DNA from: Escherichia phage slur07
Sequence record: NC_028780.1
Reading direction: 5' to 3' (one strand)
DNA length: 64,000 bases
The notes beneath the pieces were generated by a model. That model worked only from the letters and a program-made list of their open reading frames with translations, was not told the origin of the DNA and did no database searches. Of this stretch, positions 38,862-42,263 are shown in pieces. Position numbers and translations under genes: made by a program. Position 1 is the first letter of the stretch. Every line of letters starts with the position of its first letter.

Positions 38862-38891
38862 GTTTACTTTTCCTCTTGACTGTGGTATAAT
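38862..38891 (+). promoter_or_regulatory. early promoter for regB, GTTTAC / 18 bp / TATAAT
   Basis: GTTTAC 38862-38867, TGTGGTATAAT with -10 at 38886-38891. Confidence 0.7.
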
Positions 38892-38918: not shown

Positions 38919-39380
38919 ATGACTATCAATACAGAAGTTTTTATCCGTCGAAATAAGCTTCGTCGTCACTTTGAGTCGGAGTTTCGTCAAATTAACAATG
39001 AGATTCGTGAGGCATCAAAAGCAGCAGGGGTCTCATCGTTTCATCTAAAATATTCTCAACATCTTCTTGATCGTGCAATTCAACGGGAGATTGATGAGAC
39101 ATATGTTTTTGAATTATTCCATAAAATAAAAGACCATGTTTTAGAAGTTAATGAATTCCTGAGTATGCCTCCGCGTCCTGACATTGACGAGGATTTTATT
39201 GATGGGGTTGAATATCGTCCTGGACGTTTAGAAATCACAGATGGAAATCTTTGGCTTGGATTTACAGTTTGTAAACCTAACGAGAAGTTCAAAGACCCGT
39301 CACTTCAATGTAGGATGGCAATTATCAACAGTCGTCGTTTACCAGGAAAGGCTTCTAAAGCAGTAATTAAAACTCAATGA
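38919..39380 (+). CDS. regB: site-specific endoribonuclease RegB
   Basis: 153 aa MTINTEVFIRRNKLRRHFESEFRQINNEIREASK..., matches T4 RegB length and sequence; early promoter 38862-38891. Confidence 0.93.
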   Translation: MTINTEVFIRRNKLRRHFESEFRQINNEIREASKAAGVSSFHLKYSQHLLDRAIQREIDETYVFELFHKIKDHVLEVNEFLSMPPRPDIDEDFIDGVEYRPGRLEITDGNLWLGFTVCKPNEKFKDPSLQCRMAIINSRRLPGKASKAVIKTQ

Positions 39381-39387
39381 GGTAAGC

Positions 39388-39933
39388 ATGAGAAAAGCAC
39401 TACTCGCTGGTCTATTGGCCATTTCAATGATGGCACATAGCTCCGAGCATACTTTCAGTAATGTCCAACTCGATAACATGCGTTACGCGTATCAATTCGG
39501 GGAACAATTTTCTAAGGATGGAAAATATAAAACACATAAAAATATCCACAAGAGCGGATTAGGTCATATAATGGCAGCCATTTTATGGCAAGAAAGCTCT
39601 GGCGGAGTTAATTTAAAATCTAAACCAAAGCATCACGCTTATGGAATGTTCCAAAATTATTTGCCTACTATGCGAGCGAGAGTTAAGGAACTTGGTTATA
39701 ATATGACCGATGCTGAAATAAAAAGAATGTTGAATAAACGGTCCAATTCAGCTTCCTGGGCGTACATTGAACTTTCTTATTGGTTAAATATACATAAGGG
39801 CGATATAAGAAAAGCAATATCCTCTTATAATTCGGGATGGAATGTTAAAGCAGGTTCTAGATATGCTTCTGAAGTCCTAGAAAAGGCTAATTACCTTAAA
39901 AATAATAAACTTTTGGAAATAGTAAATGACTAA
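39388..39933 (+). CDS. secreted lytic-transglycosylase-like protein
   Basis: 181 aa; N-terminal signal peptide (MRKALLAGLLAISMMAHS); SLT-like catalytic region ILWQESSGG ... AYGMFQ. Confidence 0.6.
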   Translation: MRKALLAGLLAISMMAHSSEHTFSNVQLDNMRYAYQFGEQFSKDGKYKTHKNIHKSGLGHIMAAILWQESSGGVNLKSKPKHHAYGMFQNYLPTMRARVKELGYNMTDAEIKRMLNKRSNSASWAYIELSYWLNIHKGDIRKAISSYNSGWNVKAGSRYASEVLEKANYLKNNKLLEIVND

Positions 39934-40267
39934 AATTTTGGTTTTATGTATAGGATTAATTTCATTTTCTGCGTTAGCAGATACATCATATACTGAAATT
40001 AGAGAGTATGTAAACCGTACTGCAGCGGATTATTGCGGGAAAAATAAAGCATGTCAAGCTGAATTTGCACAGAAATTAATATATGCATATAAAGACGGAG
40101 AAAGAGATAAATCAAGTAGATACAAAAACGATACATTATTAAAACGATATGCTAAAAAGTGGAATACCTTAGAATGTTCAGTTGCGGAGGAGAAAGATAA
40201 AGCCGCTTGTCATTCAATGGTTGACCGTTTGGTAGATTCTTATAATCGAGGATTGAGTACTAGATGA
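39926..40267 (+). CDS. small secreted Cys-containing protein (possible vs ortholog)
   Basis: 113 aa; signal peptide MTKILVLCIGLISFSALA; four Cys; position after regB. Confidence 0.5.
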   Translation: MTKILVLCIGLISFSALADTSYTEIREYVNRTAADYCGKNKACQAEFAQKLIYAYKDGERDKSSRYKNDTLLKRYAKKWNTLECSVAEEKDKAACHSMVDRLVDSYNRGLSTR

Positions 40268-40731
40268 TTGTAAAATATATCAAGGGCGATATTGTCGCCC
40301 TTTTCGCTGAAGGTAAAAATATTGCGCATGGATGCAATTGTTTTCATACTATGGGTTCAGGCGTAGCGGGTCAATTAACCAAAGCTTTCCCTAAAATTTT
40401 GGAAGCTGATAAATTACAGACTGAATGGGGTGATGTAACTAAACTCGGTTCTTACTCAGTCTATGAAAAATACTTTAGGACTCATAAAGCGTATTGCTTT
40501 AATCTTTATACTCAATTTCAACCAGGGCCAAATTTTGAGTATTCCGCTTTAATGAATTGTATGTTAGAATTAAATGAGTTTGGTGAAAATAAACTGATTA
40601 AACCTACAATCTATATGCCTAGGATTGGTGCAGGCATAGGTAAAGGGAACTGGGATATTATTGAGGGGATTTTAGATACATATTCCTCTAAATTAGAAAT
40701 TGTGATTGTTGATTGGGAACCGTTATTATGA
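40264..40731 (+). CDS. macro-domain-like protein
   Basis: 155 aa; GDIVAL ... HGCNCFHTMGSGVAGQL ... IGAGIGKG resemble macro (ADP-ribose binding/hydrolase) motifs. Confidence 0.5.
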   Translation: MIVKYIKGDIVALFAEGKNIAHGCNCFHTMGSGVAGQLTKAFPKILEADKLQTEWGDVTKLGSYSVYEKYFRTHKAYCFNLYTQFQPGPNFEYSALMNCMLELNEFGENKLIKPTIYMPRIGAGIGKGNWDIIEGILDTYSSKLEIVIVDWEPLL

Positions 40732-40940
40732 ATATACATTATCCACATCCGTATGACCCAAAGAATAAGGCAGTAATTATTCGTCAATGGGAACGCATTT
40801 GTCGTACTAAATGTCCAATTAATAGTCCACATGATGTAGATAAAGACTACATTGGAACATTCGTTGAATATACCTTTATTGATAAGAAAGGTCGTAAACA
40901 GCATGTAGAAGAATACTGCTTAAAGGTGACATGGTTATGA
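40728..40940 (+). CDS. hypothetical small protein
   Basis: 70 aa from ATG 40728 (ATGA overlap). Confidence 0.45.
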   Translation: MNIHYPHPYDPKNKAVIIRQWERICRTKCPINSPHDVDKDYIGTFVEYTFIDKKGRKQHVEEYCLKVTWL

Positions 40941-41143
40941 GCCAAACTAGTATTCTTAAAAATGCCCACTGTGAAAAGTGTAAATGGCCGGTTGTTTTTG
41001 CTTTATGCAACGATGAAATGGCTTGTGATTTCGATTATTGGTGCTATTGTTCTAATAAAGGATGCATCAATCATAAAGGTGAAGGATTTTATTCGGGATT
41101 TTATCCTTATCCAGATTTCGTTAAAGAAGGTAAACCGAAATGA
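40937..41143 (+). CDS. Cys-rich small protein (putative zinc-binding)
   Basis: 68 aa from ATG 40937; CEKC ... C ... CDFDYWCYC ... C. Confidence 0.45.
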   Translation: MSQTSILKNAHCEKCKWPVVFALCNDEMACDFDYWCYCSNKGCINHKGEGFYSGFYPYPDFVKEGKPK

Positions 41144-41313
41144 ATAGTTCTGAGTTACAATATGAAGTGTTACGTGAACTTGATAATTTAATTGAACTCG
41201 CTGTTAATAAAGGTTTTGCCATTGGAATTGGTCAAAAAGATACTGATCATTTAACTGTGGAAATATTTAAGCAAAAGCGAATTATTTTAAAACTTTTGGA
41301 AATTAATATATGA
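41140..41313 (+). CDS. hypothetical small protein
   Basis: 57 aa ORF not in the track; ATGA overlaps at both ends (41140, 41310) continue the coupled gene chain. Confidence 0.4.
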   Translation: MNSSELQYEVLRELDNLIELAVNKGFAIGIGQKDTDHLTVEIFKQKRIILKLLEINI

Positions 41314-41495
41314 GTTTAAGCAAAGAACAAAAAGACAAACTCTTTTCTCTTATCCACGAAGTTATGGATAAAAACAGTGAATTGGAAAAAGTTTGTGATG
41401 AATGCGGTCCTTTTAATGCAAATGAATACGAAGAACTTTCTAAAGAATTCGATAATAAAGAACAAGAACTTATTAATTATATAAATTCCTTATGA
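41310..41495 (+). CDS. hypothetical small protein
   Basis: 61 aa, acidic; ATGA-coupled. Confidence 0.45.
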   Translation: MSLSKEQKDKLFSLIHEVMDKNSELEKVCDECGPFNANEYEELSKEFDNKEQELINYINSL

Positions 41496-41680
41496 TTACT
41501 CGCGAACAAAAGAACGAAATATTATTTTTAGTTGGTGAAATTATTAGTTTAGAAAAGGATTTGTCTTTTGAAATATCTTCTGAATATGGAGATGCCGAAA
41601 CATATTACGAATTAGTAAAATCTATCGATAAAGTTGAAAATGATTTAGAAACATATTTAGAAAATTTAACTAAGGACTAA
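41492..41680 (+). CDS. hypothetical small protein
   Basis: 62 aa, acidic; ATGA-coupled. Confidence 0.45.
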   Translation: MITREQKNEILFLVGEIISLEKDLSFEISSEYGDAETYYELVKSIDKVENDLETYLENLTKD

Positions 41681-41681
41681 G

Positions 41682-42263
41682 ATGGCGAGTTTAATTTTTA
41701 CTTATGCAGCAATGAATGCTGGAAAATCTGCTTCTCTTTTGACTGCTGCACATAATTATAAAGAACGTGGAATGAGTGTATTAGTTCTTAAGCCTGCTAT
41801 TGATACTCGCGATTCTGTCTGTGAAGTCGTTTCTCGCATTGGAATTAAGCAGGAAGCGAATATTATTACAGATGATATGGATATTTTCGAGTTCTATAAA
41901 TGGGCTGAAGCACAAAAAGATATTCATTGCGTATTTGTAGATGAAGCTCAGTTTTTAAAAACTGAACAGGCGCATCAATTGAGCCGAATTGTTGATACAT
42001 ATAATGTTCCTGTTATGGCTTATGGGCTAAGGACTGATTTCGCTGGAAAATTATTTGAAGGTTCTAAAGAACTTTTAGCGATTGCAGATAAACTTATTGA
42101 ACTAAAGGCAGTTTGTCATTGTGGTAAAAAAGCGATTATGACAGCTCGATTAATGGAAGATGGATCACCAGTTAAAGAAGGTAATCAAATCTGTATTGGT
42201 GATGAAATTTATGTTTCTTTGTGTAGAAAACATTGGAATGAATTAACTAAAAAGCTCGGTTAG
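41682..42263 (+). CDS. tk: thymidine kinase
   Basis: 193 aa, T4 Tk length; P-loop AAMNAGKSASLL; C-terminal Zn-ribbon cysteines. Confidence 0.9.
   Translation: MASLIFTYAAMNAGKSASLLTAAHNYKERGMSVLVLKPAIDTRDSVCEVVSRIGIKQEANIITDDMDIFEFYKWAEAQKDIHCVFVDEAQFLKTEQAHQLSRIVDTYNVPVMAYGLRTDFAGKLFEGSKELLAIADKLIELKAVCHCGKKAIMTARLMEDGSPVKEGNQICIGDEIYVSLCRKHWNELTKKLG

What the first reader, a model, noticed from the sequence alone, without database searches (positions are those of the whole stretch)
40264..40731. Macro-domain-like protein in the regB-tk interval
The motifs GDIVAL, HGCNCFHTMGSGVAGQL and IGAGIGKG resemble the ADP-ribose-binding loop of macro domains. T-even phages ADP-ribosylate host proteins, so a phage macro domain could reverse or read ADP-ribose marks, or counter host ADP-ribosylating defences. 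The gene starts a run of six ATGA/TAATG-coupled small genes (40264-41680) that includes a Cys-rich putative zinc-binding protein.
Basis: inference. Interest (0 to 1): 0.4.

Follow-up and report, generated by a model that had tools for sequence, protein, structure and literature searches.

The report
T4 Tk.4 (AdfM) macrodomain, already known

Summary
The ORF at 40264-40731 (+, 155 aa) is real. Its protein is 155/155 identical to phage T4 Tk.4. It is a genuine macrodomain: Pfam Macro scores above the curated cut-off, the AlphaFold model has pLDDT 95.6, and the best PDB matches by sequence and fold are all ALC1-like macrodomains (BT1257, TARG1, Poa1p, DarG, SCO6735).

T4's own annotation already notes an "A1pp phosphatase motif". 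A 2025 preprint (HIDEN-SEQ) showed that tk.4 is the single T4 gene needed on DarTG2-expressing hosts and renamed it adfM. The "reverse T4's own marks" reading has no support.

My one addition concerns the active site. It is not DarG-like. The catalytic lysine of DarG (K80), TARG1 (K84) and PhiKZ AdfM (K78) is an invariant glutamine here (Q84, 119/119 homologues). Q84 pairs with invariant N25 and G124, which match the three residues whose mutation lowers or abolishes activity in Streptomyces SCO6735, a thymidine-ADP-ribose DNA hydrolase. Tk.4 lacks SCO6735's extended "mobile loop".

The ATGA-coupled gene run and the zinc-binding neighbour are confirmed. Interest is low and the finding is already known.

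The parts
40264..40731 (+). tk.4 / adfM coding sequence (155 aa plus stop), a single-domain ALC1-like macrodomain
   Evidence: ORF list. Pfam Macro 27.7 bits, above the cut-off of 22. 100% identical to T4 Tk.4. AF2 pLDDT 95.6. Foldseek top hits are TARG1, Poa1p, BT1257 and DarG.
40327..40377 (+). Loop 1 region H22-L38 (HGCNCFHTMGSGVAGQL). It contains the family-conserved G23, N25, G33 and A35.
   Evidence: N25 aligns with SCO6735 Asn27 and DarG Asn22. G23 aligns with SCO6735 Val25, the proposed backbone water-positioning residue (PMC9411070).
40501..40515 (+). NLYTQ motif. The Q84 codon (40513-40515) occupies the position of the catalytic Lys of DarG and TARG1.
   Evidence: Q in 119/119 family members. 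K in Mtb DarG, Taq DarG, TARG1 and PhiKZ gp104. Q in BT1257 and SCO6735 (alignments).
40618..40647 (+). Loop 2, P119-G128 (PRIGAGIGKG), the diphosphate/distal-ribose binding loop
   Evidence: P119, I121, G122 and G124 are invariant. G124 aligns with SCO6735 Gly128. The TARG1 Asp125 position is Gly or Ala here.
38863..38891 (+). Promoter-like site (TTTACT-17-TATAAT with upstream TG) ahead of regB. It is a candidate early promoter for the regB-to-tk unit.
   Evidence: Consensus scan. The number of promoter-like sites in the region is not above shuffled controls, so this is a lead only.
38919..40267 (+). Upstream genes of the same tightly packed unit: regB (38919-39380), vs.1 (39388-39933, SLT domain) and vs (39926-40267)
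   Evidence: Pfam and PHROG hits. Junctions verified.
40728..40940 (+). tk.3 (70 aa, DUF7202), ATGA-coupled to tk.4
   Evidence: PF23832 at 1.6e-38. 70/70 identical to T4 Tk.3.
40937..41143 (+). 68-aa Cys-rich protein (phage zinc-binding domain). Absent from T4.
   Evidence: PF23895 at 2.6e-29. 7 Cys. It lies in the 367-bp insertion relative to T4.
41140..41313 (+). 57-aa protein of unknown function (phrog_3452). Absent from T4.
   Evidence: PHROG at 2.8e-33. Part of the insertion relative to T4.
41310..41680 (+). tk.2 (41310-41495) and tk.1 (41492-41680), both DUF7438
   Evidence: PF24219 at 3e-19 and 1e-13. 57/61 and 61/62 identical to T4 Tk.2 and Tk.1.
41682..42263 (+). tk, thymidine kinase, at the end of the coupled run
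   Evidence: PF00265 at 2.8e-60. 190/193 identical to T4 Tk.

Best explanation
The gene is tk.4 (adfM) of a T4-type Tequatrovirus. It encodes a stand-alone 155-aa macrodomain of the ALC1-like class.

Proposed mechanism: it is transcribed with the early regB-vs-tk cluster and is present when phage DNA replication begins. The host DarT2 toxin ADP-ribosylates thymidines in single-stranded phage DNA. Tk.4 binds the ADP-ribose moiety in the cleft formed by loop 1 (H22-L38) and loop 2 (P119-G128). It then hydrolyses the thymine-ribose bond, which restores replicable DNA and neutralises DarTG2 defence.

The catalytic chemistry is probably the lysine-independent type described for Streptomyces SCO6735. 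In that scheme Gln84, held by Asn25, positions the distal ribose and the transition state, and a backbone-positioned water attacks. This differs from the Lys80/Lys84 chemistry of DarG and TARG1.

Shown here: identity with T4 Tk.4, the macrodomain fold, and the Gln-type active-site residues with their invariance. Shown in the literature: the genetic requirement for tk.4 on DarTG2 hosts. Inferred: hydrolysis of thymidine-ADP-ribose by Tk.4, the catalytic role of Q84 and N25, and the early timing of expression.
For: Identity and synteny. Tk.4 is 155/155 identical to T4 Tk.4, and the gene order regB-vs.1-vs-tk.4-tk.3-...-tk is conserved.

Fold.
- Pfam Macro scores above the gathering threshold.
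- The AF2 model has pLDDT 95.6 and pTM 0.91.
- Foldseek PDB top hits are TARG1, Poa1p, BT1257 and the DarG macrodomains, with TMq 0.69-0.80 and probability 1.00.
- The family profile hits only ALC1-like macrodomains in the PDB, with BT1257 best at 3e-18.
- The PADLOC DarG model hits at 1.3e-9.

Function. The HIDEN-SEQ preprint reports tk.4 as the single significant T4 hit on a DarTG2 host, and a clean knockout is sensitised. T4 lacking adfA and adfN stays DarTG2-resistant, which predicted a further factor. Phage T5, which is DarTG2-sensitive, has no family member; its best profile hit is 9 bits against 213 bits for the window ORF.

Mechanism. Q84 is invariant in 119/119 homologues and aligns with SCO6735 Gln85. 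N25 aligns with Asn27 and G124 with Gly128. In SCO6735, Q85A abolishes and N27S nearly abolishes thymidine-ADPr DNA hydrolysis, and mutation of Gly128 (G128E) reduces activity. That enzyme is faster than DarG and TARG1 and rescues DarT toxicity (PMC9411070).
Against: - No biochemical assay of Tk.4 is reported in the papers I could read. The preprint only says enzymatic removal 'seems likely'.
- The genetic evidence comes from one non-peer-reviewed preprint.
- Tk.4 lacks the 5-6-residue extension of the SCO6735/BT1257 'mobile loop', which was proposed to help DNA processing.
- Its sequence is no closer to SCO6735 (1e-13) than to TARG1 (3e-15) or Mtb DarG (4e-14), so the Gln could be convergent.
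- SCO6735's Q85A mutant still inhibits DarT by binding, so a non-catalytic contribution is not excluded.
- Early expression is inferred only from gene packing and one promoter-like site, and promoter-like sites in the region are no more frequent than in shuffles.
Confidence: 0.75

Rival explanations
1. Tk.4 neutralises DarT2 without catalysis. It would bind the toxin directly as an antitoxin mimic, or shield or sequester ADP-ribosylated sites.
For: The catalytically dead SCO6735 Q85A, DarG K80A and TARG1 K84A mutants still inhibit DarT in vitro, and SCO6735 does so most strongly (PMC9411070). Other phage anti-DarT factors, AdfA and ICP1 AdfB, act by binding DarT.
Against: - Tk.4 has no counterpart of the DarG C-terminal DarT-binding domain. 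It is 155 aa and matches only positions 2-146 of the 338-position NCBIfam DarG profile.
- Every residue tied to catalysis in SCO6735 is invariant across 119 homologues from very different phages. That fits an enzyme acting on a universal product better than a binder of one toxin.
Confidence: 0.1
2. The primary substrates are small ADP-ribose derivatives: ADP-ribose-1''-phosphate, O-acetyl-ADP-ribose or NAD-derived immune signals. This matches the legacy 'A1pp phosphatase', 'Poa1p-like' and 'O-acetyl-ADP-ribose deacetylase' annotations.
For: Database annotations include 'phosphatase', 'Poa1p-like' and 'O-acetyl-ADP-ribose deacetylase'. Poa1p is among the best structural matches, with TMq 0.80. 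[quoted passage not shown] In two T4-like contigs the homologue lies near RNA ligase 1 and PNKP repair genes.
Against: - The only phenotype on record is specific sensitisation to DarTG2, a DNA ADP-ribosylating system.
- The Poa1p alignment is weak over the C-terminal half.
- By my reading of that alignment, Poa1p appears to have Ser rather than Gln at the position aligned with Q84.
- The 'phosphatase' name is a historical domain label, not a measured activity.
Confidence: 0.1
3. Tk.4 erases or reads ADP-ribose (or RNAylation) marks placed on host proteins by T4's own transferases Alt, ModA and ModB, tuning the phage's takeover programme.
For: Macro domains as a superfamily can erase protein ADP-ribosylation.
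Against: - Background knowledge, not tested here: Alt/ModA/ModB modify arginine, a linkage handled by ARH-type hydrolases and not by characterised ALC1-like macrodomains.
- In the transposon screen, tk.4 depletion was specific to the DarTG2-expressing host.
- Homologues occur in about 2,800 phage records from many genera. I did not check whether those phages carry Alt/Mod homologues.
Confidence: 0.05

Closest known systems
Phage T4 Tk.4 = AdfM (anti-DarT factor Macrodomain; bioRxiv 10.1101/2025.11.20.689424)
   Same: The protein is identical (155/155). The neighbours are the same (vs upstream, tk.3 downstream), and flanking DNA is 98-99% identical.
   Different: Nothing in the protein differs. 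The window's phage carries a 367-bp insertion with two extra small genes between tk.3 and tk.2, which T4 lacks and T2/RB14-type phages have.
Streptomyces coelicolor SCO6735 and Bacteroides BT1257 (Gln-type ALC1-like macrodomains; PDB 5E3B, 2FG1)
   Same: Gln sits at the catalytic-Lys position, with the conserved Asn that locks it and the conserved Gly of loop 2. BT1257 is the best PDB sequence match, at 1.3e-9 with the single sequence and 3e-18 with the profile. SCO6735 cleaves thymidine-linked ADP-ribose on DNA and rescues DarT toxicity.
   Different: Identity is only 22-30%. Tk.4 lacks the 5-6-residue longer 'mobile loop' that characterises that subclass. It has its own invariant residues (D49, Y82, C24, C26) where those proteins have Y, I, C and D. 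It is phage-borne rather than chromosomal.
DarG antitoxin macrodomain of DarTG2 (PDB 5M3E, 5M31, 5M3I)
   Same: Same fold (TMq 0.76-0.77), the same conserved Asn, and the same biological outcome of neutralising DarT2.
   Different: DarG has catalytic Lys80 where Tk.4 has Gln84. DarG carries a C-terminal DarT-binding domain and sits in an operon with darT. Tk.4 is a single domain with no darT nearby, and its NCBIfam DarG score is 30 bits against a cut-off of 250.
Chimallivirus AdfM (PhiKZ gp104; Cell Rep 2026, PMC13309987)
   Same: Same name, a phage-encoded stand-alone macrodomain, and the same target system (DarTG2). Removal of ADP-ribose from DarT2-modified DNA has been shown biochemically for this protein.
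   Different: They are not orthologous. BLASTP aligns only 23 residues. PhiKZ AdfM is DarG-type, with N23 and K78, and is imported into the phage nucleus. Tk.4 is Gln-type. Two independent groups gave the same name to two different macrodomain lineages.
Human TARG1/OARD1 and yeast Poa1p
   Same: They are the best Foldseek matches (E about 1e-9, TMq 0.69-0.80). TARG1 also reverses DarT-type thymidine ADP-ribosylation (title and abstract of PMC8501950).
   Different: The TARG1 catalytic dyad Lys84/Asp125 is Gln84 and Gly126 in Tk.4. Poa1p is an ADP-ribose-1''-phosphate phosphatase, and by my reading of the alignment it appears to have Ser at the position aligned with Q84.

Membership tests
Macro domain superfamily (Pfam PF01661) | Profile match above the curated gathering score | tested here: met
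   27.7 bits against a cut-off of 22, E 2.9e-6, covering profile positions 2-113 of 118.
Macro domain superfamily (Pfam PF01661) | Three-layer alpha/beta macro fold with the two glycine-rich ADP-ribose-binding loops | tested here: met
   AF2 pLDDT 95.6 with a mixed beta-alpha topology. 136 PDB matches at E <= 0.001, and those listed are macro domains or designs built on them. G33, G122 and G124 are invariant.
ALC1-like macrodomain class (TARG1, DarG, Poa1p, SCO6735/BT1257) | Closest relatives by sequence and by fold belong to this class rather than to MacroD-type or viral Mac1-type | tested here: met
   Nearly all of the 16 profile hits in the PDB are named members of this class: BT1257, TARG1/C6orf130, DarG, the DarTG fusion, Poa1p and SCO6735. 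MacroD-like and viral macro domains appear only from Foldseek rank 24 onward, with TMq below 0.65.
T4 Tk.4 / AdfM orthologous group | High sequence identity and a conserved position between vs and tk.3 | tested here: met
   155/155 identical. The neighbours vs and tk.3 are conserved.
T4 Tk.4 / AdfM orthologous group | Confers resistance to DarTG2 | not testable with these tools
   Reported for T4 in a preprint. The only consistency check here is that DarTG2-sensitive T5 lacks any homologue.
DarG antitoxin (DarTG2) | Catalytic lysine (Lys80) in the macrodomain | tested here: not met
   Gln84 aligns with Lys80 of Mtb and Taq DarG. Q is found in 119/119 family members.
DarG antitoxin (DarTG2) | C-terminal DarT-binding domain; full-length model score | tested here: not met
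   The protein is 155 aa. NCBIfam NF048014 scores 30.3 bits against a cut-off of 250, and only profile positions 2-146 of 338 are matched.
DarG antitoxin (DarTG2) | Encoded next to a darT toxin gene | tested here: not met
   The neighbours are vs and tk.3. Two homologues filed under bacterial MAGs also sit in T4-like phage contigs with no DarT.
SCO6735/BT1257 subclass (Gln-type thymidine-ADPr hydrolases) | Gln at the catalytic-Lys position, plus the Asn that locks it and the loop-2 Gly | tested here: met
   Q84, N25 and G124 align with Gln85, Asn27 and Gly128, and all are invariant or nearly so. The mutational data are in PMC9411070.
SCO6735/BT1257 subclass (Gln-type thymidine-ADPr hydrolases) | Extended 'mobile loop', five residues longer than in DarG and TARG1 | tested here: not met
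   Tk.4 has 8 residues between Q84 and Y93, like TARG1. BT1257 has 14 (alignments).
SCO6735/BT1257 subclass (Gln-type thymidine-ADPr hydrolases) | Hydrolysis of thymidine-linked ADP-ribose on ssDNA | not testable with these tools
   Needs an enzyme assay. See the decisive next steps.
TARG1-type glycohydrolase | Lys84/Asp125 catalytic dyad | tested here: not met
   Tk.4 has Gln84 and Gly126 at these positions. The family has Ala or Gly at the second.
Chimallivirus AdfM (PhiKZ gp104) | DarG-like sequence with N23 and K78 | tested here: not met
   BLASTP aligns only 23 residues, E 0.005. PhiKZ has K where Tk.4 has Q.

The most novel reading that the evidence does not exclude
Tk.4-type AdfM is a lysine-independent, Gln-type thymidine-ADP-ribose DNA glycohydrolase. 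Under this reading it is a lineage recruited by phages independently of the DarG-like (Lys-type) AdfM of chimalliviruses, and it is spread over thousands of myovirus genomes. Its own invariant residues (D49, Y82, C24, C26) and short loop would define a third active-site variant within ALC1-like macrodomains, possibly with a broader substrate range than DarT2 products. That would make anti-DarT2 'orphan antitoxins' polyphyletic and mechanistically diverse.
Probability: 0.5. Interest if true: 0.35.

Novelty: already known. Interest (0 to 1): 0.15.

Why it matters
The gene is a real phage counter-defence enzyme against a DNA-ADP-ribosylating toxin-antitoxin system. However, it has carried a macro/A1pp domain annotation in the T4 reference genome, and its anti-DarTG2 role was published in 2025. 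Flagging it in a T4-like genome therefore adds nothing new.

The residual value is mechanistic. The literature describes Tk.4 by analogy with DarG, yet its active site is of the SCO6735 Gln type and not the DarG Lys type. In addition, the name AdfM now covers two unrelated macrodomain lineages. This matters for anyone designing catalytic-dead controls, because there is no K-to-A equivalent in Tk.4. Q84A or N25A are the rational mutants. It also matters for annotating phage macro domains and inferring their evolutionary origin.

Tried and rejected
- **DarG membership.** The PADLOC and NCBIfam DarG models do hit, but only over the macrodomain and far below the NCBIfam cut-off. Together with the Lys-to-Gln change, I rejected filing the gene as DarG.
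- **A bacterial origin or toxin-antitoxin context.** Two homologues are labelled as bacterial MAG proteins (P0072, P0118). Both sit in T4-like phage contigs with Rnl1, a Dda-like helicase, PNKP, dCMP deaminase and T4 spanin, and no DarT. No cellular context was recovered.
- **Orthology with PhiKZ AdfM.** Rejected, because BLASTP aligns only 23 residues.
- **Promoter scan.** Promoter-like sites are no more frequent than in shuffled sequence (21 against 21.7 ± 4.5). Only the site upstream of regB is mentioned, and only as a lead.
- **tk.2/tk.1 tandem duplication.** Both match DUF7438 and phrog_653, but BLASTP finds no pairwise alignment. Paralogy holds at profile level only.
- **Literature.** The original LeRoux et al. 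2022 DarTG paper is not in the searchable library. Statements on T5 sensitivity therefore rest.
- **Structure.** Model coordinates are not exposed, so I could not measure the geometry of Q84, N25 and D49 or the surface charge.

Full report
**Observation**

The ORF at 40264-40731 on the + strand is real. It has an ATG start, a TGA stop and 155 codons.

The gene sits between regB (38919-39380, Pfam REGB_T4, 8e-69) and tk (41682-42263, Pfam TK, 3e-60). The genes vs.1 and vs lie immediately upstream.

The translationally coupled run is confirmed base by base:
- 4-nt ATGA overlaps occur at 40264, 40728, 40937, 41140, 41310 and 41492.
- A TAA-G-ATG junction leads into tk at 41682.
- No junction is of the TAATG type.
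- The coupling already starts upstream, because vs.1/vs overlap by 8 nt and vs/tk.4 share an ATGA.

The Cys-rich member (40937-41143, 7 Cys in 68 aa) matches Pfam PF23895, 'Phage zinc binding domain', at 2.6e-29.

**What it is**

Megablast of 39800-41800 finds 678 phage records, nearly all Tequatrovirus and relatives. The gene under the match is annotated tk.4, 'phosphatase', 'macro domain protein' or 'Poa1p-like'. A tblastn search shows the protein is 100% identical to T4 'ORF 60.5'. Direct comparison with the T4 reference gives 155/155 identical residues for Tk.4 and 70/70 for Tk.3, with 98-99% nucleotide identity in the flanks.

The window's phage differs from T4 by a 367-bp insertion (40942-41308). 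The insertion carries the zinc-binding gene and a 57-aa gene, as in T2/RB14-type phages. The T4 RefSeq note for tk.4 already reads 'contains A1pp phosphatase motif', and A1pp is the old name of the macro domain.

**Is it a macrodomain?**

Yes, on several independent lines:
- Pfam Macro scores 27.7 bits against a gathering score of 22.
- PHROG 335 matches at 1.3e-65.
- A 72-sequence alignment of homologues gave an AlphaFold2 model with mean pLDDT 95.6 and pTM 0.91.
- Foldseek against the PDB returns TARG1, Poa1p, BT1257 and the DarG macrodomains first (E 1e-9 to 7e-7, TMq 0.69-0.80). MacroD-type and viral Mac1-type domains appear only further down.
- Sequence searches of the PDB give the same picture, both with the single protein and with the family profile. 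Nearly all of the 16 profile hits are named ALC1-like macrodomains, and BT1257 is best at 3e-18.
- Against predicted viral structures, the best matches are other phage tk.4-like macro proteins.

**What it does: literature**

The HIDEN-SEQ preprint (bioRxiv 10.1101/2025.11.20.689424) infected a DarTG2-expressing host with a T4 transposon library and found tk.4 as the single significant hit. A clean knockout sensitised T4 to DarTG2. The authors noted structural similarity to the Mycobacterium tuberculosis DarG macrodomain and renamed the gene adfM. They stated that enzymatic removal of ADP-ribose from DNA 'seems likely', so no enzymology is reported.

This fills a gap predicted earlier. T4 lacking adfA and adfN remains DarTG2-resistant (PMC11825919).

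I ran one simple consistency test. Phage T5 is DarTG2-sensitive. Its whole unique genome was translated in six frames and searched with the family profile. The best score was 9 bits, against 213 bits for the window ORF.

**Active-site anatomy: the one point beyond the literature**

I first checked recalled sequences of Mtb DarG and human TARG1 against PDB entries, and both were identical. I took the Taq DarG, BT1257 and SCO6735 sequences from the printed alignments and PhiKZ gp104 from its paper. I then aligned all of them with Tk.4 and 118 homologues.

- The catalytic lysine of DarG (K80), TARG1 (K84) and PhiKZ AdfM (K78) corresponds to Gln84 in Tk.4. This Gln is present in 119 of 119 family members.
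- BT1257 and SCO6735 also have Gln at this position.
- Asn25 (118/119) aligns with SCO6735 Asn27 and DarG Asn22.
- Gly124 (119/119) aligns with SCO6735 Gly128.
- TARG1 Asp125 is Gly or Ala in the family.

For SCO6735, Q85A abolishes and N27S nearly abolishes hydrolysis of thymidine-linked ADP-ribose on DNA, and mutation of Gly128 (G128E) reduces activity. The enzyme is faster than DarG and TARG1 on this substrate. It rescues DarT toxicity, and a water-mediated, backbone-assisted mechanism was proposed for it (PMC9411070).

Tk.4 therefore works like DarG but has an SCO6735-type catalytic centre. It is not a clean member of that subclass either:
- It lacks the 5-6-residue extension of the 'mobile loop'.
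- It is only 22-30% identical to SCO6735 and BT1257.
- It has its own invariant residues (D49, Y82, C24, C26), whose roles are unknown.

**Relation to other 'AdfM' and DarG proteins**

A 2026 Cell Reports paper independently named PhiKZ gp104 'AdfM' and showed biochemically that it removes ADP-ribose from DarT2-modified DNA. That protein is DarG-type (N23/K78), and BLASTP aligns only 23 residues of it with Tk.4. The same name therefore covers two macrodomain lineages.

Tk.4 is not a DarG. The catalytic Lys is absent, there is no C-terminal DarT-binding domain (NCBIfam DarG scores 30 bits against a cut-off of 250), and there is no neighbouring darT. Two homologues deposited under bacterial MAG names turned out to lie in T4-like phage contigs. 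The family as sampled is phage-borne and very widespread, with about 2,850 phage records at E <= 1e-3.

**Mechanism proposed**

The gene is packed head-to-tail with regB, vs.1, vs and the tk.x genes. No + strand terminator-like site was found in the interval, and one promoter-like site lies upstream of regB. That site is a weak lead only, because such sites are no more frequent here than in shuffles.

I infer early co-expression. Tk.4 would then hydrolyse the thymine-ADP-ribose bond that DarT2 places on single-stranded phage DNA, using Gln84 and Asn25 to position the distal ribose.

Rivals:
- Non-catalytic inhibition of DarT2. This has a precedent, because SCO6735 Q85A still inhibits DarT.
- A primary role on small ADP-ribose derivatives, as implied by the legacy 'A1pp/Poa1p/OAADPr' annotations and the argument in PMC9503650.
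- Erasure of T4's own Alt/Mod marks. This has no support.

**Verdict**

The domain has been annotated in the T4 reference genome, and the anti-DarTG2 role was published in 2025. The only increment here is that Tk.4/AdfM is a Gln-type rather than a Lys-type ALC1-like macrodomain. This suggests Q84A and N25A as the informative mutants, and it suggests an acquisition independent of chimallivirus AdfM.

Noticed in passing
window 40942-41308: A 367-bp insertion relative to T4 lies between tk.3 and tk.2. It carries a 68-aa Cys-rich 'phage zinc binding domain' protein (PF23895) and a 57-aa protein of unknown function (phrog_3452). Both are ATGA-coupled into the run. T2/RB14-type phages have them and T4 does not.
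   Followed up: partly
window 40282-40302 (minus strand): A perfect 8-bp GC-rich hairpin (AAGGGCGA-caata-TCGCCCTT) is followed by a T-run on the minus strand, inside codons 7-13 of tk.4. It looks like an intrinsic terminator for antisense transcription (-12.8 kcal/mol, z = -3.6, 0 of 200 shuffles as stable). On the + strand the same hairpin lies 18 nt after the tk.4 start codon. I did not check its conservation or function.
   Followed up: partly
window 41310-41680: tk.2 and tk.1 both match DUF7438 (PF24219) and phrog_653, so they look like diverged tandem paralogues. BLASTP finds no pairwise alignment between them.
   Followed up: partly
literature (not a window coordinate): The name AdfM is used for two non-orthologous phage macrodomains: T4 Tk.4 (Gln-type) and PhiKZ gp104 (Lys-type, DarG-like). 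BLASTP aligns only 23 residues between them.
   Followed up: yes
L002 1927-2397 and L003 6001-6480: Two tk.4 homologues deposited as proteins of bacterial MAGs (Bacilli, Culicoidibacterales) lie on roughly 40-kb contigs full of T4-like genes: Rnl1, a Dda-like helicase, PNKP, dCMP deaminase and spanin. These are probably phage contigs binned into MAGs. In L002 the macro gene sits next to RNA ligase 1 and a DUF4326 gene.
   Followed up: partly
The preprint also reports vs as the T4 gene most depleted in minimal medium.
   Followed up: no
Tk.4 residues D49, Y82, C24, C26 (window 40408-40410, 40507-40509, 40333-40335, 40339-40341): These residues are invariant or nearly invariant in the Tk.4 family but differ from all the characterised ALC1-like macrodomains I aligned. 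For example, D49 is Tyr in DarG, PhiKZ AdfM, BT1257 and SCO6735, and falls in an alignment gap in TARG1. Their role is unknown and they may be relevant to catalysis or DNA binding.
   Followed up: no
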